Below are positions 1-21,023 of a DNA stretch of 64,000 nucleotides, in pieces (position 1 is the first letter of the stretch; every line of letters begins with the position of its first letter). The stretch is from NCBI GenBank assembly GCA_000092065.1, contig CP000598.1. One strand, written 5' to 3'. The notes under the pieces were generated by a model. It made no database searches and was not told the origin of the DNA. It saw only the letters and a program-made list of their open reading frames with translations. This DNA comes from Ostreococcus lucimarinus (lineage: Eukaryota). The translations under genes and the position numbers were made by a program.

Positions 1-1908
1 AAAAAGCTCTGCGCCGGGGACGAAGTGTTGATCCCGGCGGTGTGCTGGTCCACGAGTTTGTGGCCGATCGTACAAATGGGCCTGATTCCAGTGTTCGTGG
101 ACGTGGACGTGGCGACGATGAACGTGGACTTGGACGACTTGGAAGCGAGAATCACGGATAAGACGCGAGGCGTGCTCGCGGTGCACGTCCTCGGCAACAT
201 GTGCGATATGGACAGGCTGATGGATATTTGTGCCCGTCGCGACTTGCTCCTCGTCGAAGACACGTGCGAATCGCTGGGAAGCACGTACGGCGGGAAGTGC
301 GTGGGGACGTTTGGGAGTTTTGGCTCGTACAGTTTTTACTTTTCCCACCACATCACCACGGGCGAAGGTGGAATGGTCGTGTGTCAGACTCAAGAAGACG
401 CCGATCTCGTCCGATGCTTGCGCGCGCACGGCTGGACGCGCGAGCTTTCTAACAAAGATGAGTTACACGAACAAAACGCGCACATAGATTCGCGTTTCAT
501 GTTCGTCAACGTCGGGTACAACTTGCGCCCCATGGAAATCTCTGGGGCTGTCGGGAAGTGCCAGCTTCTTCGTCTGGACTCGATGAACGCCAACAGAAAA
601 GAAAACCGCGAGCGCTTGCTTCGAGCTCTGCAGTCGCACGATAAATGGAACGATCAATTCCGCTTCCCGGTCGCCCCGAATGCGTCCGCCGACCCGGCGT
701 GGTTCGGCTTCGTGGCCGTGCTTCGACGCGATCTGCAGAAGCGCCTGCCGACGTATTTGGAATTTCTCACCAGACACAAGATTGAAAATCGTCCAATCAT
801 CAGCGGTAACTTTGTGCACCAGCCGGCGATCAAAACTTTGGGATTGAGCGTTGACCCGAACGGATATCCTGGCTCGGACGAGCTGGGCACGTGCGGGTTT
901 TTCATCGGCGTGCACACGTATCGCCTGTCGGATGCGCAGATCTCGTACCTCGCCGACACCATGCTCGCCTTCGACTTTGACTGCGCCGTGAACAGAAAAG
1001 TCGTGCTCGTGACTGGTGGCAGCGGTCTCGTCGGTCGAGCGCTCAAAGAACACGTCAAAACATCGGCGAACACAAACGATTCATGGATTTTTACATCTTC
1101 CAAAGATGCTGATTTGTGCTCTTACGACGAGACGAAGAGGCTCTTCGAGCGATATCGCCCGACGCACGTCATTCACCTCGCGGTGAAGCTCATGGCGGGC
1201 GGCGACATGTCGAAAATGGCGGCGAGTCTCATTCAGGATAACAACGCGATTAACGCTAATGTTCTTCGTTGCGCGCACGAAATCGACTGCGACAAGGTTG
1301 TCTCTGTCTTATCTTCTTTCGCTTACCCGAAAGACGTGAGTTTGCCGATCACAGAAAAGCGACTGCACGACGGTCCTTGCCATCCGTTGTATGAGTCTTA
1401 CGGTTCGTCAAAGCGTAACCTCGAAATTCTATCGCGCGCCTACCGCGCGCAACATGGTAGGAAGTTCGTCACCGTCATTCCGAGCAATATATTTGGAACC
1501 ATATCGCAACTGCGCGAGGGTGGTCCGGTCATCGACGCGCTCATGAGCAAGGCTGCGCAATCCGCGGCTACAGGTTCTGAATTCACATGCAGAGGCACCG
1601 GTGCGCCGTGCCGTCAGTTCTGCTACGCACCCGATCTAGCGCGCGTGCTCATTTGGTCTTTGGAACATTACGACGAAGAAGAGCCAATAAATGTCGCTGG
1701 GGAAGAGATCAGCATACGCGCCGTGGCGGAGCTCATCGCCAACATGTTCGGCGTCGAGAAACGCTTGTCGTTTGACGCGTCGTTTCCAGATGGGCCCATG
1801 TACCGCACGCTAAGCGATGATAAGCTCCGACGTCTGTATGAAGGTTACGAGCAAACCGATTTCGAAACGGCACTTCGAAGCGTCGTCGCACGCGTCATCA
1901 ACGCGTAA
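1..1908 (+). CDS. 5'-truncated bifunctional-looking protein. The N-terminal DegT/ColD-like PLP sugar 3-dehydratase domain (to ~nt 960) is fused in one open frame to a GDP-L-fucose synthase / GDP-colitose synthase-like SDR reductase (nt ~961-1908). An internal ATG at 961 could start a separate reductase gene instead.
   Basis: The frame is open from position 1 (KKLCAGDEVLIP...), so the gene begins upstream of the window. The motif FGSYSFYFSHHITTGEGG is DegT-like, with His in place of the canonical PLP-lysine (ColD/E1 3-dehydratase subfamily). The C-terminal half has KVVLVTGGSGLVGRAL (Rossmann) and YGSSK (YxxxK), typical of GER/FX-type GDP-fucose synthases. There is no stop between the two domains. 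Confidence 0.7.
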   Translation, partial: KKLCAGDEVLIPAVCWSTSLWPIVQMGLIPVFVDVDVATMNVDLDDLEARITDKTRGVLAVHVLGNMCDMDRLMDICARRDLLLVEDTCESLGSTYGGKCVGTFGSFGSYSFYFSHHITTGEGGMVVCQTQEDADLVRCLRAHGWTRELSNKDELHEQNAHIDSRFMFVNVGYNLRPMEISGAVGKCQLLRLDSMNANRKENRERLLRALQSHDKWNDQFRFPVAPNASADPAWFGFVAVLRRDLQKRLPTYLEFLTRHKIENRPIISGNFVHQPAIKTLGLSVDPNGYPGSDELGTCGFFIGVHTYRLSDAQISYLADTMLAFDFDCAVNRKVVLVTGGSGLVGRALKEHVKTSANTNDSWIFTSSKDADLCSYDETKRLFERYRPTHVIHLAVKLMAGGDMSKMAASLIQDNNAINANVLRCAHEIDCDKVVSVLSSFAYPKDVSLPITEKRLHDGPCHPLYESYGSSKRNLEILSRAYRAQHGRKFVTVIPSNIFGTISQLREGGPVIDALMSKAAQSAATGSEFTCRGTGAPCRQFCYAPDLARVLIWSLEHYDEEEPINVAGEEISIRAVAELIANMFGVEKRLSFDASFPDGPMYRTLSDDKLRRLYEGYEQTDFETALRSVVARVINA

Positions 1909-2034
1909 TACATCGGCTGTTTGACGATATACATCTTGTAAAAGTCGCATTTGTATGTCGCATACAGCTATGATGAGATAGTTCAGTAAGCGTAGCTCAA
2001 CGCTTTGTAAGTTGATCTACAAACTCTATAAACT

Positions 2035-3216
2035 CTACTTTTTCGTGCCGGCAAAGCTGTAGTGCGCCGCGCAAATCATCACGATAGCAGCGCCGGCGAC
2101 AGTCGACTCGGACAAGGTGGAGTAATCCATAAAGTATGCGGTAAAAAATATCAGCGCAAACTTGTTGGTGTTGTTGAGTATCGTAATACTCGTCGGGGTG
2201 ATCAAGCGATTGAGCTGAAACGCGGAAACGCTCAAGCAAAATCCTAGCGTGCACGAAACGAAGAGTGCGACGCACTGCGATTTTGTCGCGCCGCTCGCCA
2301 TAAACTTTTGTAGCGTCTCGTTTTCTCTTTGAGCGAACCCGACGATGGCGCACACGGGTAAGGATAGTAAGTTATTATAGTACGCCATGGTCCAGCTGTT
2401 CATATCGAGCTCGTTCACGAGCGATTTGACCTTGATTTGATACGCCGTCGTCGCCGCTACGTTCACCGCAAGCCAGGCGTACCCCGTAAAGTCAAAATTC
2501 GAAGCCGCGTCCAGATCGCCCGACGCGTACACCAACGACCCTGCGCACATTCCTAATATCGCCAAAATCCTCGGTTTCGTCTGCACCGTGCCCAGACAAA
2601 AATAATCCGCTATGGCGATCGTCACCGTACCTAAATTTCTTTGCACTATGAGCGTCGTCGCCGTCACGAACTTGAGCGCCAGCATGGACGACGCGAGCAT
2701 GGCGTAAAACAAAAGCACGAGCGCGAACCAACGTTTGGCTTTATGTCGCCGCACCGGCTCGATCTGCAGACTCAGCACCGATTTCCCGAACGCGAGCAAC
2801 ACCAGCGTCACCGCGTTTTGCGCGAACAGCACCGCGTTCGGGGCGGGGAAGAACCCCATGATTTGTTTATTCAGCACGGTGAGCGCGCTGCCGGATAGAC
2901 AAAACGCCGCGGCGACCAAGGTGATCGTGACGACCGCCATCGCGACGGCTGCGTGTCGTCCGCCGTCGCGCGCGATCGCGTCGTCCGGTTTCGCGTCGAC
3001 TCGAGGCCCGCCGTCTCGCGAGCCGCGCCGACGACTGACTCGCGCGCGTTTTGAATTCGTCCGTCGATTTCCGGAATTCCAAAATTCCACGTCAAAATTT
3101 TGCGCCGCGCCGCGTCCGGCTGGCGCCGCACCACTCCGCACGGGCGATCGCGCCCGGAAAGCGATCGGATCGTCGGGAAACTGATCAATAAACGACGTGC
3201 AATATTTTGATAGCAT
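2035..3216 (-). CDS. Golgi nucleotide-sugar transporter, TPT/GDP-sugar-transporter-like. It has a long Arg-rich N-terminal extension if the ATG at 3216 is used; an alternative ATG at 2940 lies just before the first transmembrane segment.
   Basis: The ORF is 393 aa with multiple hydrophobic segments (IVQRNLGTVTIAIADYFCLGT, AYFMDYS...) and resembles the SLC35C/VRG4 family. It ends ...AGTKK. The ATG at 3214-3216 was verified on the minus strand. Confidence 0.6.
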   Translation of the reverse strand: MLSKYCTSFIDQFPDDPIAFRARSPVRSGAAPAGRGAAQNFDVEFWNSGNRRTNSKRARVSRRRGSRDGGPRVDAKPDDAIARDGGRHAAVAMAVVTITLVAAAFCLSGSALTVLNKQIMGFFPAPNAVLFAQNAVTLVLLAFGKSVLSLQIEPVRRHKAKRWFALVLLFYAMLASSMLALKFVTATTLIVQRNLGTVTIAIADYFCLGTVQTKPRILAILGMCAGSLVYASGDLDAASNFDFTGYAWLAVNVAATTAYQIKVKSLVNELDMNSWTMAYYNNLLSLPVCAIVGFAQRENETLQKFMASGATKSQCVALFVSCTLGFCLSVSAFQLNRLITPTSITILNNTNKFALIFFTAYFMDYSTLSESTVAGAAIVMICAAHYSFAGTKK

Positions 3217-4259: not shown

Positions 4260-5450
4260 ATGCGCATCCTTCTCACCGGTGGCGCCGGCTTCATCGGCTC
4301 GCACGTCGCCGAGCGCCTCGCGTCGAGGCATCCCGAGTACACGGTGCGCGCACGATTTCGACCACGTGTGCGTGCGTCGAACAACGCACGGACTTTGCAC
4401 CCATCTCTCGCGCGAACGACTGACCGCGAACGACTCGTCGCGCTCGGACAGATTGTCGTCCTGGACAAGCTCGACTATTGCTCGAGCTTGAAAAATCTCG
4501 AACGCGCGAAAGAATGCGCGAACGTGCGGTTCGTCAAGGGCGATGTGCGTTCGTTCGATTTATTGAGTTACGTCTTGCAAAGCGAGCGCATCGACACCGT
4601 CGTGCACTTCGCCGCGCAGAGTCACGTGGACAACTCTTTCGGGAACTCGTACGAGTTCACGAAGAATAACATCGAGGGCACGCACGCGTTACTCGAGGCG
4701 TGCGTGCGAGCGCAGACGACCGAAATTCGACGATTCCTGCACGTGTCCACGGATGAGGTATACGGGGAAAATCTCATGGATTCAAACACCGAGCACGCGG
4801 CGCTCCTGACGCCCACCAACCCGTACGCCGCGACCAAGGCGGGCGCGGAGATGCTCGTCATGGCGTACGGACGCTCGTACGGATTGCCGTACATCATCAC
4901 TCGCGGAAACAACGTGTACGGGCCGAATCAGTATCCAGAGAAGGCGATTCCAAAGTTTTCAATCCTCGCGAAACGCGGGGAAAAGATTTCTATACACGGC
5001 GACGGCGACGTGACGCGTTCGTACATGCACGTCGACGATGCGGGTTCGGCGTTCGACGTCATTCTCCACCGCGGAACGCCGGCGCAGATTTATAACATCG
5101 GCTCGCGCGAAGAACGGACGATCTTGTCCGTCGCTCGGGATGTCTGTAAGCTCCTCGATCGCGACCCGGAAACGACCATCGAGCACGTGAGCGATCGAGC
5201 CTTCAACGACCGAAGATATTTCATCGATTGCTCAAAGCTTTTAGCGCTCGGATGGCGACAAGAAAAGTCCTGGGACGTCGGTCTCGCGGAAACCGTGCGT
5301 TGGTACTCGAATAACGATTTGAGCGCGTACTGGGGCGAATTCTCACCCGCGTTGCGCCCGCACCCTTCGGCGAGCGCGGATGGGCGACGACGATCGCTCG
5401 AGTTTGATTTCACGAATGATTCTGACGATCGCGCGACACCGACTTTGTAA
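4260..5450 (+). CDS. NAD-dependent dTDP/UDP-glucose 4,6-dehydratase (RmlB/UGD-like). It may contain a 108-nt in-frame intron at 4344-4451.
   Basis: The protein starts MRILLTGGAGFIGSHV and has YAATK (YxxxK). It is collinear with RmlB except for a 36-aa Arg-rich insertion between HPEYT and VVLDKLDY. That insertion is bounded by GT...AG (gtgcgc...cggacag). Confidence 0.8.
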   Translation: MRILLTGGAGFIGSHVAERLASRHPEYTVRARFRPRVRASNNARTLHPSLARTTDRERLVALGQIVVLDKLDYCSSLKNLERAKECANVRFVKGDVRSFDLLSYVLQSERIDTVVHFAAQSHVDNSFGNSYEFTKNNIEGTHALLEACVRAQTTEIRRFLHVSTDEVYGENLMDSNTEHAALLTPTNPYAATKAGAEMLVMAYGRSYGLPYIITRGNNVYGPNQYPEKAIPKFSILAKRGEKISIHGDGDVTRSYMHVDDAGSAFDVILHRGTPAQIYNIGSREERTILSVARDVCKLLDRDPETTIEHVSDRAFNDRRYFIDCSKLLALGWRQEKSWDVGLAETVRWYSNNDLSAYWGEFSPALRPHPSASADGRRRSLEFDFTNDSDDRATPTL

Positions 5451-5779: not shown

Positions 5780-7192
5780 ATGGATCATGGATGCCAACCA
5801 CCACGGACGTTTCAAGCGAGGCACTCGTGTCGACTGTGGTTCGTTTTCACCGTCTCAGTGGCGTGCGTCGTCGTCGGATCGCGCGGGGCGTCGTACGGAA
5901 CGTACGAGAACGACGGCGGTGTCACTCGGGAGCGGCGCGCGGATCGTGCGCGACGACCGGCTATAGAGTCTAGATCATCCTTGAGCGAAGTGACTCGTGA
6001 AACGTACGAGCGCGCACGAACGGTCTTCGAGGAATTTTTAAATGAGCGGAGCGCGCAGTGCGGGCGCGCGTTCACGGAGACGCGCACGCACTTTGGCGCT
6101 CCCGTGGAAACACCTCCATACCCTGGGGGACCTCCTCCTGGTACCGGTGCGGTGCTCACAGAGATGGTGCGAGCTGCGGCGGCGGCGTGGCATAGAAACA
6201 TGTCGTACGTGATGCGTGGTAAATGGGCGTTGGTTTCGGATAGCGACTGCGCTGAGGCAGAGTTTCAAGGATTTGCCTGCATGTTCCCAGGATTGTCGCG
6301 CTCGTGTCGAGCCTTGGAAGGTGAAAACCCGATGTTGAATTTACAAGACGCGCAAGACTTCTGGCGTCACTGGAGCAAAAATCTCAGCGTTGATGCGATT
6401 TTTTTATTTGGGCTCGCCGCGGATGCGCTGACAGACGTCCGTCGCGCGAGCGTCAAAGTGAAGAGTTTTCTCGAACACGACCTATCGAGTGCATTAGCGG
6501 GATCTGAGAGCGAAGGAATCGCAGTCGGTATACATTTTCGCAACCGTGGAGATATCAGACTCGATGGGAGATTGAGGATACCTCTGGAGCGTTACGTCGA
6601 GTGGGTGGATGGGCTTGGGAATTCAACGAAAATTCGTGCCGTTTACGTCGCCACAGATCACGATGGACTGGATGTTCGCGAGCTCAACGAGCGTTTTCCC
6701 GGTCGTTCGTACGAATTCCGAATGATCAAGCGTTTGTGGGCACCAGCGACCGCCACAAACCTGTGGCAGACGACGACGACGGCGACGGCGGGTGGTTTGA
6801 AGTTTGAAACCGCGAAAACACAAATGGTCGTCGAGGCGTTGAGCGACATCAACATTCTCTCGCACTGCGACGCATTTCTCGGCTCGATATCAAACTTTTT
6901 GCCCTTCATCATGTCGCTTTTACACGCGCGGGATCCACTTCGTGAACGCGGTCGTATTTGCGGTTTCATGAACACAAACGTAACCACTTTCGGAGGTCAC
7001 GCCGCGGCGGAAGAACTCACGAAAGCTACGAGCGAATTCGCCTCGGGGCTGGATGACGCGCACGCCGGAGACGTAGGATCAAAGGAAGCGATCGTTTCGT
7101 GTGTTGGGGATAGATCGTTACGCGACTATTGGATGGTGCTTTACGGGCATAACATTCCGAGCGAGACCGTAGACGTGCTGCCCCTGCGATGA
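5780..7192 (+). CDS. Type II membrane glycosyltransferase of the GT23 / O-FucT / NodZ superfamily (FUT8-like fucosyltransferase).
   Basis: The ATG is at 5780. There is an N-terminal signal anchor (LWFVFTVSVACVVVG). Conserved motifs GIHFRNRGD (compare HVRRTDK) and VYVATDHDGL (compare VYLATDDP) are present. Confidence 0.45.
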   Translation: MDHGCQPPRTFQARHSCRLWFVFTVSVACVVVGSRGASYGTYENDGGVTRERRADRARRPAIESRSSLSEVTRETYERARTVFEEFLNERSAQCGRAFTETRTHFGAPVETPPYPGGPPPGTGAVLTEMVRAAAAAWHRNMSYVMRGKWALVSDSDCAEAEFQGFACMFPGLSRSCRALEGENPMLNLQDAQDFWRHWSKNLSVDAIFLFGLAADALTDVRRASVKVKSFLEHDLSSALAGSESEGIAVGIHFRNRGDIRLDGRLRIPLERYVEWVDGLGNSTKIRAVYVATDHDGLDVRELNERFPGRSYEFRMIKRLWAPATATNLWQTTTTATAGGLKFETAKTQMVVEALSDINILSHCDAFLGSISNFLPFIMSLLHARDPLRERGRICGFMNTNVTTFGGHAAAEELTKATSEFASGLDDAHAGDVGSKEAIVSCVGDRSLRDYWMVLYGHNIPSETVDVLPLR

Positions 7193-7280
7193 ACGTAGAA
7201 ATGATCCATCCAACACAAATACTACTTGTAACTACTCGCAAGCTATTTTGTTCGCTATTTTGTTCGTTGTCGATACGATT

Positions 7281-8858
7281 TTATCGGCGTCCACCCTCGT
7301 CGAGAAGTCTTTTGATTTCCGCGGTGGGGTACTTTGACTTGTAGACAAAGTGCGGTAAAGGTCCCGCCGGATCGAGATTCTGGACGGGATCTGTTTGAGG
7401 CACCCATATATCAACCTTTCTGAGCCATTTCGCGGATATCGTGAATTGTTTCTCTTCGTGCCCGCCGCCGGGATACGGCCAGATGATCAAGTGCGAATCT
7501 TTCGCGAGGAAAAAGGACGAAAAGCCTACGCCGCCACCCGGGCAGACAAGAGTTGACGCGTTGAGAAATACGTCGATTTGTTCTTCCAAAGTGGTGTCAG
7601 GCGTAATGACGTAGTGCTTGACATTTTCGGCGCCGCGAGTCGATCGCAGCATACCGAGCACTTCCTCTTGATTGTCAAAGTCGTAAAAAGAGTACGAATC
7701 TTCCCGTCGCTTTGTGACGAACACAGTCGCGTTCTTCGAAGCCTTACGTTCGGGGTCGCGCCCGATGTTGCGAATGATGTGATCTCTGTACCCTTCGACG
7801 TCCGAGGCGTTCGCATGTAATATGCGTGCCAAGTGGTCTGGAGATCCAATGACGAGATGTTCGTAACACGTCGTCTCTCCTTGGGCGAGCGCTCGCAACT
7901 CTACGCCTAAAGCCCGCGAGAGAACCTCGACGTGTCTTTCGCACGCGGGGACCGCTAGGTGCGCGGTGTGGGGTAAATTCACCGGGTGGGCCGTCGTACA
8001 ATTCCTCATCACTAGAGCGGTGCGCTTCGTGCTCGCGCTATTCCAATGTGTTGAATACGACGAAGGTGCATCGTCAAGGTTTTGTGACAAGAAACGAAGA
8101 CGCGTCCAAATCCCAAAAAAGTTGTCTGCAAGCATATGCCCCCAGTTTCCAGCGGCAAAATAGGACGCCAACGTGAAAAATCCTTTGAGTTCAATCGGCC
8201 ATTCTCGATTCTTGCCGTTCGCGTCGACGTGAGAGAGTGTGGTTGCGTACTGAATGTCATTGGGCATCGCCGCATCCACGCGTACGACGCCGTACGACAC
8301 ACCAGCGGAGTAGTCACCGCTCGTCGACTGAACCGGATCCACCGCGTACACAACTCCTCGCTCGAGCCCCGCTTGCGTGAGCAATTCTTCGTCTCCAAAC
8401 AATGTCACCTTCGCGACGTATGGCGGGTCCAGAGGAGTCGCGCCGTACGCGGACTGTCTCGGAAACGACACGCAGGCGTGCTTCACGTAACAAGAAAACT
8501 GCGCTTTGCCGTTGACCGCAAAAGTTCTCTCGCAGCGTAGCTTTGACGCTCGGCGGTGCGTTCCCATCGCGCCGTCAACGCTAAACGACGCTGTCTTTGA
8601 GCTGTGAGAAGAGTTGTCAGTGCTCTCTCTCTCGCGCTCTTCACCGACCGAGGTCGTCGACGTCGACCTCGCCTCGACCCGTGGGTTGACGATATGCGAC
8701 GACGTGTCATCAAATCGCACGCGCGCCGTTATCGAGGCGAGAAGACGAGTTTCGCCTCGCCACGTGAGGCAGACGCTCGCGAGCGCGAGCGCGAGGACGA
8801 GGAGAAATAGTCCCGCGCGTCCAGGACGACCAGTGTGACTTCGCAGCGCTGAATCCAT
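7281..8858 (-). CDS. Type II membrane glycosyltransferase, GT61 / DUF563-like.
   Basis: The ATG at 8858 was verified. There is a signal anchor (LFLLVLALALASVCL). The C-terminal motif LEEQIDVFLNASTLVCPGGGVGFSSFF matches the GT61 pattern xEEQ(I/V)...A...HGAGLTN. Confidence 0.45.
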   Translation of the reverse strand: MDSALRSHTGRPGRAGLFLLVLALALASVCLTWRGETRLLASITARVRFDDTSSHIVNPRVEARSTSTTSVGEERERESTDNSSHSSKTASFSVDGAMGTHRRASKLRCERTFAVNGKAQFSCYVKHACVSFPRQSAYGATPLDPPYVAKVTLFGDEELLTQAGLERGVVYAVDPVQSTSGDYSAGVSYGVVRVDAAMPNDIQYATTLSHVDANGKNREWPIELKGFFTLASYFAAGNWGHMLADNFFGIWTRLRFLSQNLDDAPSSYSTHWNSASTKRTALVMRNCTTAHPVNLPHTAHLAVPACERHVEVLSRALGVELRALAQGETTCYEHLVIGSPDHLARILHANASDVEGYRDHIIRNIGRDPERKASKNATVFVTKRREDSYSFYDFDNQEEVLGMLRSTRGAENVKHYVITPDTTLEEQIDVFLNASTLVCPGGGVGFSSFFLAKDSHLIIWPYPGGGHEEKQFTISAKWLRKVDIWVPQTDPVQNLDPAGPLPHFVYKSKYPTAEIKRLLDEGGRR

Positions 8859-10594: not shown

Positions 10595-11395
10595 ATGCGC
10601 GTGCTCGTGCTCGGGTCGAGCGGGTTGATCGGCGCACCCTTGGTGGCTCGTCTTCGTCGCGCCGGTCACGATGTCACGGAATGGGACGTCGCCATGGATC
10701 GCGCGCACGATTTAACGGACGCCGCGAACGTGCCTGGCGCGCGCGACGCGATCGAGTCGAGTGATTTCGTCTTCTTTCTCGCCTTTGACGTCGGCGGCGC
10801 AAAGTACATCAGTACTCCCACCGCGAGTTTCATCCATCGAAACAGTCTCTTGATGGCGAACACGTTTAGTTTACTGCACGGCAAGCGGTTCGTTTTCGCC
10901 TCGAGCACGATGTCAAACATGGACGTCCCTTACGGCACTTTAAAACGTCTCGGCGAGCACTACACGAGCGTGCTCTCTGGAATCTCTGTGCGATTCTGGA
11001 ACGTCTACGGTCCTCAAAAGTACGGCGAGAGATCGCACGTGATCACCGATTTTATTCACAAGCTTCGAACGACCGGTTCGATTACCATGATGACTTCTGG
11101 CGCAGAAAAGCGCCAGTTTCTGCACACAGAAGACTGCGCGCGGTGTTTGGAAACAATCGCCGCGCACTACGACGAGATGCCACCCGTAGTAGACGTCACG
11201 AGTTTCGAGTGGACGACTGTTAGGGAGCTGGCTGAGTTGCTTTGCGATGACGTGGTCGCTCGTAACGACAACCGAGACAGCCACACGAAGTCGAACGAAC
11301 CGAGTCCGTTCATCCTTAGTTACTGGCGCCCCGCGATAAGTTTACGAGAAGGCATCGCGCAACTGCTCGCAGAATCAAGGACGGCGAAACGTTAA
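10595..11395 (+). CDS. Short NAD(P)-dependent epimerase/dehydratase (extended SDR).
   Basis: The ATG at 10595 begins MRVLVLGSSGLIGAPLV (GxxGxxG); PYGTLK gives YxxxK. The upstream part of the tracked ORF (9659-10594) is antisense to the GT32-like gene and is not taken as coding. Confidence 0.55.
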   Translation: MRVLVLGSSGLIGAPLVARLRRAGHDVTEWDVAMDRAHDLTDAANVPGARDAIESSDFVFFLAFDVGGAKYISTPTASFIHRNSLLMANTFSLLHGKRFVFASSTMSNMDVPYGTLKRLGEHYTSVLSGISVRFWNVYGPQKYGERSHVITDFIHKLRTTGSITMMTSGAEKRQFLHTEDCARCLETIAAHYDEMPPVVDVTSFEWTTVRELAELLCDDVVARNDNRDSHTKSNEPSPFILSYWRPAISLREGIAQLLAESRTAKR

Positions 11396-11599
11396 AGACG
11401 TAGTGCGCAAAACACGTAGCACTCTTAGTAGTTTAGCAGTAGTGTTCAACTTAGCCGTAAAACGATGCTTTAAGACGCCGAGATGGAGAATGGCTCGTCC
11501 TCACTCCGCAGCGCTTTGTCACGCGAAGACGCTCGCGAGTCAGAAGTACGATGAGACATCACTACAAACCCACACACGTGATCTCACAGTAGCTTTACG

Positions 11600-13235: not shown

Positions 13236-14258
13236 TTAGACTACATTTGAATACAGAAACGTCGACCCGATGACGAGCGCTATGCCGAGAGATGCCGTAA
13301 CGCTCAGGTTGTGTCCGTCGTTGGCGAACACCGTCGTCGCGAGGGCGCAATTACATATGGAAATAGACACGGCAAAGCATTTGAGCACGTTCCCCGCGTA
13401 TCGCAACACCGCCGCGACGACTAAACCACCGGCGGCTTGTAGCGCGATGACGAGCAACACGACGCTGTCGTATCCTTGAAACACGCTTTCGTTCGCGCGC
13501 AAGCGCTCTCCATCGCGCCACACTGATCCAATCAACGCCACTGGAAGTGAAAAGCACGCCAGTTGTGCGTTTCGGAACCATACCGATCGCTTTTGAGCGT
13601 CCACTTCTTTGTACATTTTCTCTAAATACGCCCCCGCGAAACCAGACGTAAACGCGGCGGTGAGCACGGCGACCATACCTCGCAGAGTGTCTTCCGGCCG
13701 CGCTCTATCCGACGGCACATTGCTCCGATGTCCTTCCTCGTTCTGTACCATGATCATCCCACACACGAGCACCAACAACGCTACATATTGTTTACGCGTG
13801 ATTCGCGTTCCCAGGAGCACGACGCTACAAATCGCGCTCGTGAGAATTTTGCTCTGCGAACACACCATGTATGCGGTCGGGCTCAGCAACCGCACGCCCT
13901 CGAAAAGGAGGTTGTTTTGTATCACGTACAGCACCGATGGGACCGCGAGCCGCGTCGCGTTGGATGGCACCTCGCGAAGCGCGTCCCGGGCGGCGCTTTG
14001 TCCGTCGGACGCGACCAACAAAATATAGCTCAAAACGAGTTTGACGAGCTCGGCGCTCGCGATGACTGTGGATACGACGTAAGGCGTCGCGGCTGTTCGA
14101 TACGAAAACTTCGTCATGAGCACCAAGGCGGTGTTTTGGATCGTCAAGATGAAAAGCGCCAGCGCTTGATGCTTTCGCGACGCTGACGAAGTGACTGGAA
14201 CGACGCCTGATGCACGCGTCGTGGTGTTTGCCTTTCGCTCCAGGTAAGGTGCCTGCAT
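13236..14258 (-). CDS. Nucleotide-sugar transporter of the UDP-Gal/CMP-Sia (SLC35A, Nuc_sug_transp) family.
   Basis: About 10 hydrophobic segments are present, and TSGFAGAYLEKMYKE matches the SLC35A motif GFAGVYFEKILK. The first in-frame ATG is at 14258; the tracked start at 14300 is TTG. Confidence 0.7.
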   Translation of the reverse strand: MQAPYLERKANTTTRASGVVPVTSSASRKHQALALFILTIQNTALVLMTKFSYRTAATPYVVSTVIASAELVKLVLSYILLVASDGQSAARDALREVPSNATRLAVPSVLYVIQNNLLFEGVRLLSPTAYMVCSQSKILTSAICSVVLLGTRITRKQYVALLVLVCGMIMVQNEEGHRSNVPSDRARPEDTLRGMVAVLTAAFTSGFAGAYLEKMYKEVDAQKRSVWFRNAQLACFSLPVALIGSVWRDGERLRANESVFQGYDSVVLLVIALQAAGGLVVAAVLRYAGNVLKCFAVSISICNCALATTVFANDGHNLSVTASLGIALVIGSTFLYSNVV

Positions 14259-14300: not shown

Positions 14301-15296
14301 CTACACTTCGTTACTGCGATGCGACGTAAACTTCCCGTAGGACAGCGACGTGTCGCGCGAAAATCTTCGCGAGCGCCGAATGAAGATTTCGCCGCGATGC
14401 GTCTCTCGGCCGAAGGATGAGCGGAAGTGTATATCACGCTCGCAGGCGCGATATGTTGTCGAAACTGCGCGGGGCGAAAATTTCACCTGTTGAATTAATT
14501 TCACCGCGTAAAATTTAAGGGCGAGTAAGAGATAGAAATTCCTTGTCGGAATAGCGAGTAATTTTCCAATTTTCGCTATTCTTTTTTTTCAAAAGAGATG
14601 GGCCGGAATAAAAACGCTCCGTGCCAACCTCGCGACGCGTTGCGCGCGAACGACGCGCGCTCAACGACGAAAGATCAACGCATGACGTGAGCGAGACACA
14701 ATTTCACGAGCGTGGCGTCGCGACTCGACCGATATCACGGTGGTGCGCGCTCATTCAATTTGAGGTGCTTTTCCAAAAGAGTTAGAACATGATGTTACAA
14801 CAACGACGCACGGCGCGCGCGACTGCCCGCTATCGACTATGAAACGGTTGAAAACGATGCGCGCGCGTTACTGTTAATTAATGCGCGTCACGGCTTCCAC
14901 CATCGCGCGCGGCACTGGCGCGGCGACGGTGACGCTTCGAATTGTTTTTCAAAAGAGATAGCCGGAAGAGCGTTGTCGGCATAAGACCCCCTAAAAATTA
15001 ACTCGTCACGTGACGAGTCGTCGCTATGCGAACAAGATCCTTGTCCGCGTAAATCGGCCCGATTTACGCGGATAAAAAGCTTGTCCGCATAAGATTTACG
15101 CGGATAAGCCATCTCTTATGAAAAAAAACGGCCCTTATCCGCGTAAATCGCCGATTCTATTTTCGAATTTCGCATCTCTTAGTCGGCCTAACGCGGTTAA
15201 CGTTCATCTAGACCGACGGTCGGGTATGTCCTGGTAAAACCGTTGTCGCACTCTGAGGCCCCGCGCACATTCGACAGACGTCGCTGTTTTGAAGCG
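14301..15296. promoter_or_regulatory. Divergent intergenic/promoter region. It contains an 18-bp perfect palindrome with a G-box core (actcgtcacgtgacgagt, 15001-15018), a 27-bp perfect inverted repeat (ccgcgtaaatcggcccgatttacgcgg, 15045-15071), and three copies of tttt(c)caaaagag(a/t)t(g/a)g.
   Basis: Read directly from the sequence. There is no long ORF. The region is flanked by divergently oriented transporter (-) and methyltransferase (+) genes. Confidence 0.35.
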
Positions 15297-16436
15297 ATGC
15301 GAAACAAACGAAGGACGCGACGGCTTCGTATCACGGTGATTTCCATTACGCTGGCGTCATCCATGTCGTTCATCATGTACCGTAGTCTTTCGTCGTCGTC
15401 GTCGTCGTTGAAAACGCACCGTGACGACGTCTCGCCACTTGAACGTTCAATCGCTGACGTCGTGCGCGACTTAAAGGCTACGCGCGAGCGTGTGTTGCGC
15501 GATGTTTTAGCGACCGCAGTGAGTACGGATACGACGGATGCGCGAGAGGTCGAAAACAGTTCGCCGATCGCGGACGCGCTCGATCAAGCGAAGCGAATCA
15601 TCGAGAACTTTGACCGCGCTGGTCGCTCGAACGCCAGAGAGGATGAAGCCGAATCACTCGAGACGTTACGTAGTGTAGTCGAGAGCGTGAGTGATGTACA
15701 ACGTTTAGCGGCAAATCCGAATTCGCCGGTGGTGAGGCGCGCGAAGAAGCGTTCAGAGCTGTTCAACAGAATTCACGACGCAAATTTATGGGGCAGCGCG
15801 GAGTCGAGATCCGGGGGCGGTTCGACGAAAGCGACGACGAGTACCGCGGCGAGATGTATCGGCGAATGGATTCGAAAGTATGACATCAAGACTTTCTTGG
15901 ACTTGCCGTGCGGCGACGCGAATTGGCAAGCAGGCATCCCTGGGATTGAGAACGTAAGATACACTGGCATGGATATAAGCGTCGGCGCGCTCGAGACGGC
16001 GAAGACGCGCATGTCTGAGGTTCAAACCGATATCGACGATTTTCGCACGCATGATATCGTCGCGTTACCTATGCGCCAACGTTACGACGCCATCATGCAT
16101 CGCGACGTCGTGCAACACTTGTCTTACGAAGAAGCCCTGCGAGGTTTGTCCAATTTCGCGAAGAGCGGTTCGACGTACTTCATCGTCAGCACGCACCCGA
16201 AATCGACGGAGCGAGGCGTGGAATCGGACGTCGGTGTAGCGCGCGATATTGGATACACGTATCAAAACAACATGCAGTCGGAGCCATTCAACTTCCCGCC
16301 GCCGTTGGAAATGTGCGACAACTACGCGAACAACGACGCTTCAAAGATTGCGATTTGGAGAATCGCGGACCTTCCGAATTTCGAACGTAAGCTCGCGCAT
16401 ATTTCAACGCACGAAAGCGGCGCGCGAAAGATTTGA
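15297..16436 (+). CDS. Membrane-anchored class I SAM-dependent methyltransferase (possibly a sugar O-methyltransferase).
   Basis: The first ATG is at 15297 (the tracked start 15243 is TTG). There is a signal anchor (ITVISITLASSMSFIM), a motif-I-like FLDLPCGDANW, and a later DVVQHL acidic motif. Confidence 0.5.
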   Translation: MRNKRRTRRLRITVISITLASSMSFIMYRSLSSSSSSLKTHRDDVSPLERSIADVVRDLKATRERVLRDVLATAVSTDTTDAREVENSSPIADALDQAKRIIENFDRAGRSNAREDEAESLETLRSVVESVSDVQRLAANPNSPVVRRAKKRSELFNRIHDANLWGSAESRSGGGSTKATTSTAARCIGEWIRKYDIKTFLDLPCGDANWQAGIPGIENVRYTGMDISVGALETAKTRMSEVQTDIDDFRTHDIVALPMRQRYDAIMHRDVVQHLSYEEALRGLSNFAKSGSTYFIVSTHPKSTERGVESDVGVARDIGYTYQNNMQSEPFNFPPPLEMCDNYANNDASKIAIWRIADLPNFERKLAHISTHESGARKI

Positions 16437-16439
16437 CGT

Positions 16440-17110
16440 TAGCGTAGCGCGGGTTGTCATTCGCCACCACGCGCTCGAGCGTCGCGCGCGGCGACGCGCG
16501 GCGCGACGCTCGAGCGCGCATCGACCGGCGTCGCTCGTTCGCACCAAACCGCGCGCCAAACGCGCGCGGCGCGTTCGAACGTCGCCGTCGCGCGCGTCGC
16601 GAGAAAAGGCGCGAAATCACACGCGCGCGCGGCGCTAAGATTGCGTGTCCACGTGATCGTATTGCAGTGATCCAAACGACCGTGTGAATAAAACTCGAAA
16701 CACCATAAAAACCAACGCCGCGCCCGCGTCGCGCGCGGCGTCGCGCGTCGCCGCGCGCGAGGGCGTCTCGGGGTTGGGCGTCGCGCGCGTCGAGCGACGC
16801 GCCGCTCGCGGACGGGCGAATCGAATCGTGCGCGCGCGCGGCGCGCACGTCGCGCGGCGCGCGGCTTGCGGCGCACGTCGCGCGGCGTGCGCGCGGCGAG
16901 AGGTCGCGCGGCGCGCGGTCGCGCGCGCGCGCGACGAATTCGACGACGTTCCGTGAGCCGCATTCCGCGTCGTCATCCATCGACGCTCACGGCGTCGGGA
17001 TCGCGACGACGACGCGCGCGCGCGGTGCGTTAGGTGCGTCGTGTTGTTGAATAGTGCGCGAGCGCGTCGGTGCGCGTCGGGGCGATCGCCGCGCGCGTGT
17101 GGCGAGCAAA
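16440..17110. repeat. Low-complexity CpG-only tract of roughly 650 bp ((CGCG)n / gtcgcgcg-type), followed by a (GATTT)n microsatellite at ~17133-17175.
   Basis: Read directly. The Arg-rich ORFs on both strands here are artefacts of the composition. Confidence 0.5.
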
Positions 17111-19722: not shown

Positions 19723-20772
19723 TTACACGATTACATTGATATGTTTCGCCAGTTCAACGGCATACTCATAGAGTTCTACGTCGTATTTGAACTTTTGATA
19801 TAAAGCTGCCTGAACTTGTACATCGCCTTGATAAAAATCCTCGTCCTTCACACTACGTAGAGTATTGTTTGAGCTACGACTCGAATCAATCGTGAAGTTG
19901 GTAACACCAAGATTTTGAAAGAACACGCGCAAATCCTGATCGTATGTTTCTCTGACCAATATTGCGCTGAAGTGTCGTAATCGTTCTTTCGCGGTTTCAA
20001 GAAGAAGGGCCATTATTTCATCTCTAGTCATCGTCGCTAGTTGCGTGGTGTTCTTCAATGATGTCGCTGTCGCTATCGATTGTATGTCATCAGTTCTTGT
20101 TATGCCAGTCAAAGAAAATATTATATGCCCTGGTACGCTTTCACGATGTGTGTCCATGAGGAGGTTTTCTCTGAATGAATGCGATGCCAGTCTAGCCGCA
20201 TAGCTTGTCGCAGACAGCTCGGAAATTTGCTGCGCTGTATACCCGCTCTTTCTGAAATAGTTGACGTTATGCGCGATATGACTGTTATACATGTCGTATG
20301 GATGTCGAATAGCGGTGGCGTACACCCAAGGACGTTCAGTGCTTGTGTTGAAATGAGGTGACATAGGGTGCTCCATCCCAAAAAATTCAACTCGTCGTCC
20401 CCCGGTAGTCAACTCAGAGAACAAATCCTGCTGCTGTTCGAAGTCACCGTAGGCACGCGCGTCAGGTCCGCAGGTTGGTGAGGTCACTAACTCACAGTTA
20501 CAACTCCGGTTTCCGCGCACTCCTGCTCCTGACGCATCCATGGAGCTGCACAGCGTTGTCCCACCAGCCTTCTTCAAGTGCACAAAATATACTACACTCT
20601 GTCCCTGGCGCGTTCTGAACCGCCTAACAGCATCAATATCACTTCGCTCGTATTCCGTCGGGATGACGTGCTTTGCAACTCGTTTTACCAGATCATCACC
20701 AGAGTTTCGCAAGTATATCGATGAGCCCCACGTGGCGATTAAACACCCTATGACGAAGATTCGCGCTTGCAT
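19723..20772 (-). CDS. Type II membrane carbohydrate sulfotransferase (Sulfotransfer_2 / HS6ST-like).
   Basis: The first ATG is at 20772 (the tracked start at 20814 is TTG). There is a signal anchor (IFVIGCLIATWGSSIYL). The 5'-PSB-like motif VVYFVHLKKAGGTTL matches FIHIQKTGGTTF. Confidence 0.6.
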   Translation of the reverse strand: MQARIFVIGCLIATWGSSIYLRNSGDDLVKRVAKHVIPTEYERSDIDAVRRFRTRQGQSVVYFVHLKKAGGTTLCSSMDASGAGVRGNRSCNCELVTSPTCGPDARAYGDFEQQQDLFSELTTGGRRVEFFGMEHPMSPHFNTSTERPWVYATAIRHPYDMYNSHIAHNVNYFRKSGYTAQQISELSATSYAARLASHSFRENLLMDTHRESVPGHIIFSLTGITRTDDIQSIATATSLKNTTQLATMTRDEIMALLLETAKERLRHFSAILVRETYDQDLRVFFQNLGVTNFTIDSSRSSNNTLRSVKDEDFYQGDVQVQAALYQKFKYDVELYEYAVELAKHINVIV

Positions 20773-21023
20773 ACGTCGTTCACGGTGGTTCGAAAACGAA
20801 ATAGTTGCATCCAAGTTTGTTCATGTCGTAGCGCGTCACTACACACCGCGCGCGTCCGGGTGACGCTGATTGGCGCGGGAAGCGGCCGTGGCAGCCTATG
20901 AGAAACCTTGGGTATAAGTCGCGATGGTTGCCGCGGAACTGGCTAAATCCAGCCTTGTTTTTTGGGGTGGGGTAAAACGACCAATCGTGACTCAATATCC
21001 GTTTATATATTTAGTGCACACTT

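What the first reader, a model, noticed from the sequence alone, without database searches (positions are those of the whole stretch)
1..20814. A 20-kb glycan biosynthesis and decoration island
Eleven consecutive genes encode nucleotide-sugar synthesis (3-dehydratase/reductase, 4,6-dehydratase, epimerase), two Golgi nucleotide-sugar transporters, GT23-, GT61- and GT32-like type II transferases, a further type II membrane protein, a methyltransferase and a sulfotransferase. Nearly all have N-terminal signal anchors. A functional cluster of this kind is atypical for eukaryotes. It is reminiscent of the glycosylation-rich 'small outlier chromosomes' implicated in virus resistance in prasinophytes, or of horizontally acquired/viral-like glycosylation modules.
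Basis: inference. Interest (0 to 1): 0.65.

Follow-up and report, generated by a model that had tools for sequence, protein, structure and literature searches.

The report
Ostreococcus outlier-chromosome glycosylation gene island
The gene cluster is real, but it is a stretch of the already described 'small outlier chromosome' (chromosome 18) of the marine green alga Ostreococcus lucimarinus, which is known to be packed with sugar-handling genes; what this work adds is a predicted pathway for a bacterial-type dideoxy sugar and evidence that wild populations shuffle the cluster's genes as cassettes.

Summary
The window is Ostreococcus lucimarinus CCE9901 chromosome 18, the 149-kb small outlier chromosome (SOC): six window proteins match its GenBank proteins exactly. 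The 11-gene island exists. Firm calls: a ColD-type 3-dehydratase fused to a GDP-fucose-synthase-like reductase, an NDP-glucose 4,6-dehydratase with a 108-nt intron, a short SDR, a GDP-mannose-transporter homologue, an SLC35A-type transporter and a GT69 transferase. Supported calls: GT23-like (by predicted fold), GT32-like and a methyltransferase. Weak: GT61-like. Unproven: the sulfotransferase.

Only 6 of 11 proteins have signal anchors.

New details:
- The fusion, the GDP-sugar transporter and the fucosyltransferase-like enzyme predict Golgi use of a GDP-3,6-dideoxyhexose. It would be colitose-like, but the reductase lacks the epimerase residues.
- Metagenome contigs 99–100% identical to the window break off at gene boundaries into alternative cassettes (GT90+GT_PLOD, GT17, a phosphonate module).
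- The copia element is missing, at a precise empty site, from all five wild contigs that span it.

Function in surface-glycan diversification is inferred, not shown.

The parts
1..1908 (+). 3' 1.9 kb of a fusion gene (748 aa in wild contigs). The N-terminal half is a ColD-type GDP-4-keto-6-deoxymannose 3-dehydratase. The C-terminal half is a GDP-fucose-synthase-family SDR reductase.
   Evidence: Pfam; PDB. The ColD catalytic His ('SHH') is conserved in all 17 aligned homologues. The frame is open from nt 1. Full length is seen in L007-L009.
2035..3216 (-). NST1: a multi-pass transporter homologous to Golgi GDP-mannose transporters
   Evidence: PDB 9s35 at 4.8e-16 and Vrg4 5oge at 1e-7. Four or more hydrophobic 19-mers. 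No Pfam hit.
4260..5450 (+). NDP-glucose 4,6-dehydratase (360 aa after splicing), with an in-frame 108-nt GT..AG intron at 4344-4451
   Evidence: NCBIfam TIGR01181 at 2e-98. PDB 6vlo at 3e-80. Intron sequence. The NCBI model of 360 aa is in the same 90% cluster. Frame-breaking variants at the intron occur in wild contigs.
5780..7192 (+). Type II membrane protein with a fucosyltransferase fold (GT23-like): the candidate GDP-6-deoxyhexose transferase
   Evidence: AlphaFold2 pLDDT 72.9, pTM 0.77. The top 36 Foldseek PDB hits are all FUT8, POFUT2, NodZ, AtFUT1 or POFUT1. Two distant homologues hit FUT8_N_cat at 2.5e-15. N-terminal anchor.
7281..8858 (-). Type II membrane protein, GT61-like (weak)
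   Evidence: Pfam Glyco_transf_61 at 2.8e-5, 24.8 bits against a cut-off of 27. No PDB sequence hit. Anchor. Exact match to ABP00637.
9190..10398 (-). Type II membrane protein, GT32-like with a DXD region
   Evidence: Pfam Gly_transf_sug at 4.6e-5, 24.5 bits against a cut-off of 23. Anchor. Exact match to ABP00638.
10595..11395 (+). 266-aa extended SDR of unknown sugar specificity (epimerase/reductase family)
   Evidence: Pfam Epimerase at 5.7e-24. Weak similarity to GDP-fucose synthase and GDP-mannose 3,5-epimerase. A 42%-identical homologue sits in viral contig L090, inside a NeuB/cytidylyltransferase/GT29 cluster.
11600..13117 (+). Type II membrane GT69 (CAP59/Cmt1-type, GDP-mannose-dependent family)
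   Evidence: Pfam CAP59_mtransfer at 5.1e-53 over the whole profile. Exact match to ABP00608. Listed in 398 index blocks.
13236..14258 (-). NST2: an SLC35A-type nucleotide-sugar transporter. Its first ~25 codons (14181-14258) differ between wild haplotypes.
   Evidence: Pfam Nuc_sug_transp at 5.8e-75. Breakpoint at 14180.
14519..15188 (.). 670-bp non-coding segment present in the reference and a few wild contigs, absent from most
   Evidence: A 94% copy of its start lies downstream of the methyltransferase cassette in L002.
15297..16436 (+). Membrane-anchored SAM-dependent methyltransferase. It is part of a cassette (15189 to about 16454) that is joined to different neighbours in wild contigs.
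   Evidence: Pfam Methyltransf_25/12/11 at about 1e-6. Anchor KD 1.68. Joins at 16454.
16470..17050 (.). CG-rich low-complexity tract (CGCGCG-type repeats) with only spurious Arg-rich ORFs. Similar tracts lie at 28287-28484.
19723..20772 (-). ORFan with a weak N-terminal anchor and sulfotransferase-like motifs (FVHLKKAGGTT; IRHPYDMYNSH). It sits in a low-GC cassette (about 18835/19378-21023 plus 26752-27283) found in at least 3 genomic contexts.
   Evidence: HS6ST E 0.12. Sulfotransfer_2 E 0.056. Two homologue clusters. Model failed at pLDDT 35. GC 0.468. Contexts.
21024..26751 (-). Ty1/copia LTR retrotransposon (gag 25213-26391, pol 21214-25146, LTRs of about 173 nt) with a 5-bp target-site duplication CACTT. 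It marks the right edge of the island in this strain and is not part of the glycan machinery.
   Evidence: RVT_2 at 3.7e-45 and rve. LTRs. TSD and 1 LTR mismatch. Precise empty site in five wild contigs L195-L199.

Best explanation
This is the left-central part of the small outlier chromosome (chromosome 18) of Ostreococcus lucimarinus CCE9901. It is a compact set of independently transcribed eukaryotic genes, not an operon, that together could build and decorate a Golgi-made surface glycan.

Proposed mechanism (inferred):
1. Cytosolic enzymes make unusual activated sugars. The ColD-type dehydratase fused to a GDP-fucose-synthase-like reductase would turn GDP-4-keto-6-deoxymannose (supplied by a GMD encoded elsewhere) into a GDP-3,6-dideoxyhexose. 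The 4,6-dehydratase, perhaps with the 266-aa SDR, would make an NDP-6-deoxyhexose.
2. A GDP-mannose-transporter-like carrier and an SLC35A-type carrier import the activated sugars into the Golgi.
3. Four type II transferases (GT23-like, GT61-like, GT32-like, GT69) assemble the glycan.
4. A membrane-anchored methyltransferase, and possibly a sulfotransferase, decorate it.

In wild populations the locus behaves like a bacterial O-antigen locus. A conserved core is joined at gene boundaries to alternative cassettes, which would generate different surface glycotypes. By analogy with O. tauri chromosome 19, the likely selective agent is prasinovirus attachment (or grazers).

Shown here: the identity of the locus, most protein family assignments, and the structural polymorphism. 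Inferred: the substrates, the products, Golgi localisation, joint function, and any role in virus resistance.
For: Identity:
- Exact protein matches to CCE9901 on a 149,386-bp record, against the published 149 kb and 53% GC for chromosome 18 (PMC3491373).

Family assignments:
-.

A coherent GDP-sugar theme:
- The ColD catalytic His is conserved, and the best match is the GDP-specific ColD rather than the CDP-specific E1 (7.9e-66 against 5.7e-49).
- The dehydratase is fused to a GDP-fucose-synthase-family domain with an intact Ser/Tyr/Lys triad.
- The next gene is a GDP-mannose-transporter homologue.
- A fucosyltransferase-fold enzyme and a GT69 lie within 10 kb.
- The fusion-transporter-dehydratase trio is kept in an 84%-identical relative.
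- Giant-virus contigs place GMD next to ColD plus a reductase.

Topology fits a cytosol-to-Golgi pathway:
- The soluble enzymes have no hydrophobic segment, the transferases have one N-terminal anchor, and the transporters are multi-pass.

Cassette polymorphism among contigs 99-100% identical to the window:
- Breaks occur at 5450, 14180, 14518/15189, about 16454, about 18825 and 19378/27283.
- The alternative content includes GT90+GT_PLOD, GT17, a second transporter with a PEP-mutase/decarboxylase fusion, and a DNA methylase.
- Each main haplotype is seen in 2-9 independent contigs.

Literature:
- SOC glyco-gene enrichment and lack of synteny (PMC3491373).
- The SOC as the locus of virus resistance through glycosyltransferase over-expression in O. 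tauri (PMC5082852).
- SOC hypervariability (PMC5498103; abstract of PMC13390643 as listed).
Against: - No experiment links these genes to one another or to a glycan. The genes are on both strands with their own intergenic regions, so co-regulation is not implied.
- GMD, which the proposed first pathway needs, is not in the window and was not looked for in the genome.
- The reductase domain lacks both residues that act as epimerisation acid/base in GDP-fucose synthase. It has Phe where E. coli O55 ColC and human GFS have Cys, and Ile where GFS has His and ColC has Tyr. It is only 23% identical to true ColC. The product's configuration, colitose or a D-sugar, is therefore open.
- The GT61 call is below Pfam's threshold, and the sulfotransferase call is unproven.
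- The structural haplotypes come from short-read metagenome assemblies, which can be chimeric at repeats.
- A role of the O. lucimarinus SOC in resistance had not been tested as of PMC6851583.
Confidence: 0.8

Rival explanations
1. The island, or its dideoxy-sugar module, is a recent horizontal acquisition from a giant virus or a bacterium (a 'viral-like glycosylation module') rather than native algal DNA.
For: - The dehydratase half has bacterial relatives at 54-58% identity (Bdellovibrionota, Vicinamibacterales), and in bacteria it is not fused.
- Giant-virus MAG contigs carry ColD plus a reductase at 44-50% identity. One is a true fusion (L026), and GMD lies alongside in L018 and L021.
- The 477-aa ORF just upstream of the fusion in wild contigs is homologous (E 1e-12) to the ORF just upstream of ColD in IMG/VR contigs L021-L023. 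That is a shared gene pair.
- Published work reports excess HGT on SOCs (PMC3491373).
Against: - No close relative of the fusion or the dehydratase exists in 2.9 million viral contigs. The identities are too low for a recent transfer.
- GC and GC3 of genes 1-10 are uniform and typical of the neighbouring SOC genes.
- The genes have eukaryotic features: a spliceosomal-type intron, type II anchors and SLC35 transporters.
- The same fusion architecture is spread over Bathycoccus, Chromera, bdelloid rotifers and many protist transcriptomes. The reductase half is closest to eukaryotic GDP-fucose synthase, at 39% to the human enzyme.
- Together these point to an old event rather than a recent one.
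Confidence: 0.2
2. The genes are ordinary housekeeping glycosylation enzymes (N-glycan, GPI or cell-coat synthesis) that merely happen to lie together.
For: NDP-sugar dehydratases, SLC35 transporters and GT32/GT61-type transferases also occur in core eukaryotic pathways (established knowledge). The core genes are nearly invariant (99.7-99.9% identity) and very common in marine metagenomes, with 357-436 index blocks.
Against: - Several members are near-ORFans restricted to Ostreococcus-like metagenome sequences.
- There is no synteny in Bathycoccus or in an 80%-identical relative.
- One wild haplotype (L010) breaks off at the dehydratase stop codon and continues into different genes where the window has five core genes, 5780-13117.
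- The location is the SOC, whose genes are mostly species-specific (PMC3491373).
Confidence: 0.05
3. The cluster is an assembly artefact or a bacterial or viral contaminant in the reference genome.
For: It shows bacterial-type sugar chemistry (ColD), a lower GC than the rest of the genome, and few introns.
Against: The same arrangement over 13 kb or more is recovered independently in many metagenome assemblies from different projects at 99.7-100% identity. It also has an intron, eukaryotic transporters, type II anchors and a Ty1/copia element with a target-site duplication.
Confidence: 0.01

Closest known systems
Small outlier chromosomes of Mamiellales, especially the O. tauri chromosome 19 'viral immunity chromosome' gene clusters (Yau et al. 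2016, PMC5082852; Moreau et al. 2012, PMC3491373)
   Same: The window is the O. lucimarinus counterpart (chromosome 18). It shares the low GC, the few introns, the transposons and the DUF285 surface-repeat proteins. It also has clusters that mix NAD-epimerase/dehydratases, sugar transporters, type II glycosyltransferases and methyltransferases. Synteny between species is absent, and structure varies within a species.
   Different: The individual genes are not orthologous to the O. tauri clusters described there (RgpF/Wbx, GT92, a CMP-Neu5Ac-related enzyme). The ColD-type fusion, the GT23-like, GT69 and GT61-like set and the haplotype breakpoints described here came up in none of the literature searches I ran. 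A resistance phenotype has not been tested in O. lucimarinus.
E. coli O55/O111 O-antigen locus with the GDP-L-colitose pathway (gmd, colD/wbdK, colC/wbdJ, colitosyltransferase)
   Same: Both have a ColD-type PMP-dependent 3-dehydratase with His in place of the Schiff-base Lys (best PDB match 2gms, 7.9e-66). In both it is followed by a GFS-family reductase and sits with a fucosyltransferase-superfamily enzyme. Both loci differ between strains by whole-gene cassettes.
   Different: Here the two enzymes are fused. The reductase is not a ColC orthologue (23% identity, no Cys at the S-x-C site). No gmd, wzx or wzy is present. Golgi nucleotide-sugar transporters and type II transferases replace the undecaprenol, flippase and polymerase machinery. 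The transferase is GT23-like rather than GT11.
Hypervariable glycosylation islands of marine bacteria (Prochlorococcus genomic islands; the comparison is drawn in PMC3491373)
   Same: Strain-variable blocks rich in sugar-modifying enzymes, methyltransferases and membrane proteins, thought to alter virus attachment.
   Different: This is a eukaryotic chromosome with Golgi-based chemistry. Neither the mechanism of cassette exchange nor its effect on viruses has been shown here.
Giant-virus-encoded glycosylation clusters (Chem Rev 2022, PMC9614988)
   Same: Giant-virus MAGs carry GMD + ColD + reductase next to glycosyltransferases. One gene pair is shared with the alga.
   Different: Identities are only 22-50%. 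The review does not mention colitose or 3-dehydratases. The algal genes have host-like composition and eukaryotic targeting features.

Membership tests
Mamiellales small outlier chromosome (SOC) | Lies on the smallest, low-GC chromosome of a Mamiellales genome | tested here: met
   Exact matches to O. lucimarinus CCE9901 proteins on a 149,386-bp record. Chromosome 18 is published as 149 kb and 53% GC (PMC3491373). The 2-kb GC values in the window range from 0.44 to 0.65, most between 0.5 and 0.6.
Mamiellales small outlier chromosome (SOC) | Enriched in sugar-metabolism/glycosyltransferase and methyltransferase genes, with many species-specific genes | tested here: met
   Near-ORFans.
Mamiellales small outlier chromosome (SOC) | No colinearity with other genera; structural hypervariability within the species | tested here: met
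   The Bathycoccus locus L012 is not syntenic.
Mamiellales small outlier chromosome (SOC) | Expression or rearrangement linked to prasinovirus resistance | not testable with these tools
   Shown for O. tauri (PMC5082852) and O. mediterraneus (abstract of PMC13390643). Untested for O. lucimarinus (PMC6851583).
ColD (GDP-4-keto-6-deoxy-D-mannose 3-dehydratase) | DegT-fold PMP enzyme with His replacing the catalytic Lys | tested here: met
   The 'FSHH' motif aligns with 'YSHH' of 2gms, and the H188N mutant 3b8x identifies the residue. It is invariant in 17 homologues.
ColD (GDP-4-keto-6-deoxy-D-mannose 3-dehydratase) | GDP-sugar rather than CDP-sugar specificity | tested here: inconclusive
   It is closer to ColD (7.9e-66) than to E1 (5.7e-49). 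It is fused to a GFS-family domain and sits next to a GDP-sugar transporter homologue. NCBIfam's nearest model is RfbH (E1), well below its cut-off. No assay was done.
ColC (GDP-L-colitose synthase) | GFS-family SDR with the Ser/Tyr/Lys triad | tested here: met
ColC (GDP-L-colitose synthase) | Orthology to bacterial ColC and retention of the Cys at the S-x-C site used for epimerisation | tested here: not met
   It is 23% identical to E. coli O55 ColC against 39% to human GFS. It has Phe at the Cys site and Ile at the His/Tyr site. All the eukaryotic fusions with sequence at these sites lack both residues. The roles of Cys109 and His179 are from memory of the GFS literature.
GDP-colitose pathway | GMD supplying GDP-4-keto-6-deoxymannose | not tested
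   Not in the window. Adjacent in giant-virus contigs L018 and L021-23 and in E. coli O55.
GT23 (FUT8/NodZ alpha-1,6-fucosyltransferases) | GT-B fold most similar to FUT8/NodZ | tested here: met
   Foldseek best hit is FUT8 6tkv at E 7e-6, TM 0.43, with NodZ 3six among the hits. All 36 top hits are GDP-fucose fucosyltransferases.
GT23 (FUT8/NodZ alpha-1,6-fucosyltransferases) | Direct sequence-profile match to FUT8_N_cat or NodZ | tested here: not met
   No Pfam hit even at E 10. The link is only through distant homologues. The conserved H252/R254 within 'HFRNRGD' resembles FUT8 motif I, by eye only.
GT69 (CAP59/Cmt1) | Full-length CAP59_mtransfer domain | tested here: met
   5.1e-53, profile positions 1-242 of 242.
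GT61 | Glyco_transf_61 domain above Pfam's threshold | tested here: inconclusive
   24.8 bits against a cut-off of 27, E 2.8e-5. No PDB sequence hit.
GT32 | Gly_transf_sug DXD region | tested here: met
   24.5 bits against a cut-off of 23, so only marginally met.
SLC35 nucleotide-sugar transporters | Multi-pass protein homologous to characterised NSTs | tested here: met
   NST2: Nuc_sug_transp at 5.8e-75. NST1: GDP-mannose transporters at 4.8e-16 and 1e-7. Substrates were not tested.
Carbohydrate sulfotransferases (Sulfotransfer_2/HS6ST-like) | PAPS-binding 5'-PSB and 3'-PB motifs in a sulfotransferase fold | tested here: inconclusive
   The motifs were seen by eye only. Pfam E 0.056, HS6ST3 E 0.12, and the model was unusable at pLDDT 35.
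Bacterial O-antigen/polysaccharide gene cluster | Wzx/Wzy or ABC export and lipid-carrier-based assembly in an operon | tested here: not met
   No such genes are present. The genes lie on both strands and carry eukaryotic features. The locus works like one at the population level but is not a member.
Ty1/copia LTR retrotransposon | gag-int-RT order, LTRs and a 5-bp TSD | tested here: met

The most novel reading that the evidence does not exclude
The conserved core of the island (ColD-type dehydratase/reductase fusion, GDP-sugar transporter, fucosyltransferase-fold enzyme) is a Golgi pathway for a bacterial-type GDP-3,6-dideoxyhexose, either colitose or a D-configured relative. I found no report of such a pathway in an alga.

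The same fusion is spread through protists, bdelloid rotifers and giant viruses. In O. lucimarinus it anchors an O-antigen-like 'glycotype' locus whose flanking cassettes (GT90+GT_PLOD, GT17, a phosphonate module, methyltransferase, ST-like gene) are reshuffled at gene boundaries in natural populations.
Probability: 0.35. Interest if true: 0.6.

Novelty: already known. Interest (0 to 1): 0.3.

Why it matters
The finding as stated rediscovers a published feature. The O. lucimarinus SOC and its load of sugar, transporter and methyltransferase genes are tabulated in Moreau 2012 and Yau 2016. I recall, but could not retrieve the paper, that the idea that they alter the cell surface goes back to the 2007 genome paper.

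The value here is in the detail, which gives testable chemistry and population genetics for a locus whose function in this species is still untested:
- A specific sugar to look for: a GDP-3,6-dideoxyhexose.
- A candidate transporter and transferase for that sugar.
- Exact junctions at which wild haplotypes differ.

If surface glycotype really sets virus host range in the most abundant Ostreococcus clade, these junctions could serve as markers for tracking host-virus arms races in ocean metagenomes.

Tried and rejected
- Structure prediction of the ST-like ORF with its 3-sequence alignment failed (pLDDT 35), so no fold search was possible.
- Direct Pfam, NCBIfam and PDB sequence searches gave nothing for GT23L, and no Pfam or NCBIfam hit for NST1. 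GT61L and GT32L have no PDB sequence match.
- Single-protein scans of IMG/VR for close viral relatives of the fusion and the dehydratase found none.
- PADLOC defence models gave only one marginal generic methyltransferase hit.
- Rfam and tRNA scans of the whole window were empty.
- I looked for a shared sequence motif at the nine haplotype breakpoints and found none. A repeat of the 14162-14180 junction sequence does not recur in the window.
- I first read the fusion as a plain ColD+ColC colitose synthase. I withdrew the ColC orthology after fetching the true E. coli O55 ColC and finding the key residues unconserved.
- I considered that the 266-aa SDR completes a UDP-rhamnose pathway with the 4,6-dehydratase. 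It is not similar to the RmlD-like domain fused to the dehydratase in relative L016, so this stays open.
- The 2007 genome paper could not be retrieved.
- Literature searches for GMD in Ostreococcus found nothing usable.

Full report
**What the window is.** Six proteins encoded in the window are exact matches to GenBank proteins of Ostreococcus lucimarinus CCE9901 (ABP00637, ABP00638, ABP00608, ABP00650, ABP00612; ABP00605 in the same 90% cluster). They lie on a record of 149,386 bp. Moreau et al. 2012 list O. lucimarinus chromosome 18, the small outlier chromosome (SOC), as 149 kb and 53% GC, with 78 ORFs of which 16 are in sugar metabolism and 5 are methylation enzymes (PMC3491373). Yau et al. 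2016 count 8 glycosyltransferases, 6 NAD epimerase/dehydratases, 4 sugar transporters, 11 methyltransferases and one pyridoxal enzyme on it (PMC5082852). The 2-kb GC values in the window run from 0.44 to 0.65, most between 0.5 and 0.6.

**The observation.** ORF listing and family searches confirm eleven glycan-related genes in a row, with nothing else between them.

1. 1-1908+ is the 3' part of a 748-aa fusion. The frame is open from nt 1 and the full length is seen in wild contigs. It scores DegT_DnrJ_EryC1 at 1.9e-60 and Epimerase at 2.5e-35.
2. 2035-3216- has no Pfam hit. It matches solved GDP-mannose transporters (9s35 at 4.8e-16; yeast Vrg4 5oge at 1e-7).
3. 4260-5450+ is an NDP-glucose 4,6-dehydratase (TIGR01181 at 2e-98; best structure 6vlo at 3e-80). 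It has an in-frame GT..AG intron at 4344-4451. Removing the intron restores the consensus and gives the 360-aa NCBI model.
4. 5780-7192+ has no Pfam or PDB sequence hit. It has 7 close homologue clusters in 5.8 billion proteins and 29 hits in 1.84 billion representatives. Two of the distant hits match FUT8_N_cat at 2.5e-15 and one matches NodZ. An AlphaFold2 model (pLDDT 72.9, pTM 0.77) has as its 36 best PDB neighbours only GDP-fucose-dependent fucosyltransferases, led by FUT8. 'GT23-like' holds as a fold-level statement.
5. 7281-8858- hits GT61 at 2.8e-5, below Pfam's threshold.
6. 9190-10398- hits Gly_transf_sug (the Pfam domain that marks CAZy family GT32) at 4.6e-5, just above the threshold.
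7. 10595-11395+ is a 266-aa SDR.
9. 13236-14258- is an SLC35A-type transporter (5.8e-75).
10. 15297-16436+ is a generic SAM methyltransferase.
11. 19723-20772- is called a sulfotransferase on two motifs only. Support is HS6ST at E 0.12 and Sulfotransfer_2 at E 0.056. It has two homologue clusters in the whole database and its structure model failed. That call is unproven.

Hydropathy shows one N-terminal anchor in the four transferases and weaker ones in the methyltransferase and the ST-like ORF. The three soluble enzymes have none and the two transporters are multi-pass. So 6 of 11 proteins have anchors, not 'nearly all'.

**A coherent GDP-sugar module.** The dehydratase half is closest to E. 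coli O55 ColD and keeps the His that replaces the usual Schiff-base Lys. The H188N mutant entry 3b8x pinpoints this residue, and it is invariant in 17 homologues. ColD makes GDP-4-keto-3,6-dideoxymannose. The fused domain belongs to the GDP-fucose synthase family and has an intact Ser/Tyr/Lys triad. The gene next door is a GDP-mannose-transporter homologue, and a fucosyltransferase-fold enzyme and a GT69 follow within 10 kb. An 84%-identical relative keeps the fusion-transporter-dehydratase trio. Giant-virus contigs place GMD beside ColD plus a reductase. This points to synthesis, Golgi import and transfer of a GDP-3,6-dideoxyhexose.

**Why I do not call it a colitose synthase.** I fetched the true colitose genes from E. 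coli O55:H7 CB9615. The algal reductase domain is 23% identical to ColC but 39% identical to human GDP-fucose synthase. It has Phe where ColC and GFS have the Cys of S-x-C, and Ile where GFS has His and ColC has Tyr. None of the eukaryotic fusions with sequence at these sites has the Cys or the His. From memory of the GFS literature, those two residues are the epimerisation acid/base pair. Whether the product is L-colitose or a non-epimerised D-sugar therefore cannot be decided here. GMD is not in the window and was not looked for elsewhere.

**Distribution and origin of the fusion.**
- The same fusion occurs in Bathycoccus (56% identity), Chromera, bdelloid rotifers and many protist transcriptomes.
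- Bacteria have the dehydratase alone, at up to 54-58% identity.
- Giant-virus MAGs have the two enzymes adjacent or fused at 44-50% identity.
- No close viral relative exists.
- The 477-aa ORF just upstream of the fusion in wild contigs is homologous (E 1e-12) to the ORF just upstream of ColD in three IMG/VR contigs.
- I found no paper that links Ostreococcus with a 3-dehydratase. A 2022 review of giant-virus glycans never mentions colitose.

Together these suggest an old bacterial-derived dehydratase joined to a eukaryote-type reductase, shared among protists and their viruses. They do not suggest a recent import. GC and GC3 of genes 1-10 are uniform.

**Synteny.** The Bathycoccus fusion sits on a 160-kb record among unrelated genes. 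In an 80%-identical relative the identical protein is found once beside housekeeping genes and once beside other ORFs.

**Population structure.** The exact GT69, methyltransferase and ST-like proteins are each listed in 357-436 blocks of the metagenome index. Contigs 99.2-100% identical to the window leave it at defined points.

- At 5450, the stop codon of the dehydratase, L010 continues into a second transporter (26% identical to NST2), a dehydrogenase and a PEP-mutase/phosphonopyruvate-decarboxylase fusion. That is a phosphonate cassette.
- At 14180, inside the first codons of NST2, four kinds of flank follow:
  - the reference type;
  - the same without the 670-bp segment 14519-15188 (the commonest, nine contigs);
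  - GT90 + GT_PLOD (L001, L108);
  - GT17 (L005, L102, L104, L106).
- About 18 nt after the methyltransferase stop (about 16454), at least four different continuations exist. One leads to a DNA methylase (L200).
- L103 and L111 skip from 18825 to sequence like 28821/58521.
- The ST-like cassette occurs in three contexts: reference-like (L198), between GT4 genes (L195, L196, L199), and beside housekeeping genes (L197).
- The copia element (21024-26751; TSD CACTT; one LTR mismatch) is precisely absent from all five wild contigs that span the site.

No common motif marks the breakpoints. Because these are short-read assemblies, chimeras are possible. However, most haplotypes are seen in several independent assemblies.

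**Comparison with what is known.** The locus is a member of the SOC class. At the population level it works like a bacterial O-antigen locus or the hypervariable islands of marine bacteria, but with Golgi transporters and type II transferases in place of Wzx/Wzy machinery. SOC glyco-gene content, lack of synteny, hypervariability and the link to resistance in O. tauri and O. mediterraneus are published (PMC3491373, PMC5082852, PMC5498103; PMC13390643 from its abstract). For O. lucimarinus the resistance link was still untested in 2019 (PMC6851583).

**Verdict.** The novelty class is 'already known'. The dideoxy-sugar prediction and the cassette map are modest new leads, and they justify an interest of about 0.3.

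Noticed in passing
window 21024-26751 (TSD at 21019-21023 and 26752-26756): A Ty1/copia element with near-identical LTRs and an intact 5-bp duplication (CACTT). It is precisely absent from five wild contigs (L195-L199), which join 21023 to 26750. It therefore looks like a recent insertion, private or rare to the reference strain.
   Followed up: yes
L010:1-4117 (joins the window at 5450): An alternative haplotype replaces everything after the dehydratase stop codon. It carries a second nucleotide-sugar transporter, a 3-hydroxyisobutyrate-dehydrogenase-like enzyme and a PEP mutase fused to a TPP decarboxylase, which would be a phosphonate-biosynthesis cassette.
   Followed up: partly
L007:14158-15591 (just left of the window) and L021:6679-7746, L022, L023: The unannotated 477-aa ORF immediately upstream of the fusion gene in wild contigs is homologous (E 1e-12) to the 355-aa ORF immediately upstream of ColD in three large IMG/VR contigs. 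The gene pair is shared between alga and virus-like contigs. Its function is unknown.
   Followed up: partly
L090:7776-13872: The best viral relative of the 266-aa SDR (42% identity) lies in a marine viral contig between two DegT aminotransferases, a GT29-like gene, a cytidylyltransferase and NeuB. That is a nonulosonic-acid-type cluster, which hints at a different role for this SDR.
   Followed up: no
L197 and L013: The exact ST-like protein, and in a relative the fusion protein, are also found next to ordinary housekeeping genes (poly(A) polymerase, RRS1, RRP12; RNA polymerase III subunit, RbcX). This could reflect SOC-to-standard-chromosome translocations or assembly chimeras.
   Followed up: no
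window 42191-46371 vs 54125-58319; 28654-29630 vs 58354-59147: There is a direct duplication of about 4.2 kb, 11.94 kb apart, carrying near-identical 841/843-aa membrane-anchored ORFans. A second repeated segment of about 1 kb lies 29.6 kb apart. Wild haplotypes L103 and L111 join 18825 to this second repeat.
   Followed up: partly
window 33545-41368: A 2607-aa protein with 13 DUF285 stretches (75-nt repeat units), two 100%-identical internal blocks about 933 nt apart, and a long C-terminal membrane/coiled-coil part. It matches the 'cell surface repeat lipoprotein' class drawn on the O. tauri SOC map.
   Followed up: partly
window 27744-27827: A short fragment with 71% identity over 28 aa to the GDP-sugar transporter NST1, probably a pseudogene relic just beyond the ST cassette.
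   Followed up: no
window 31079-32599 (-): An ORF with LNATxxELK-type repeats and an extensin-like SPPPSPPPSPPPPSP stretch. It is a possible O-glycosylated surface protein encoded near the island.
   Followed up: no
window 16470-17050 and 28287-28484: CG-rich low-complexity tracts (CGCGCG-type) that produce long spurious Arg-rich ORFs on both strands. One lies directly after a recombination-prone junction (about 16454).
   Followed up: no
L200:7204-9654: In one wild haplotype the methyltransferase gene is followed by an 816-aa DNA (cytosine) methylase with CXXC and Tudor-like domains, instead of the reference sequence.
   Followed up: no
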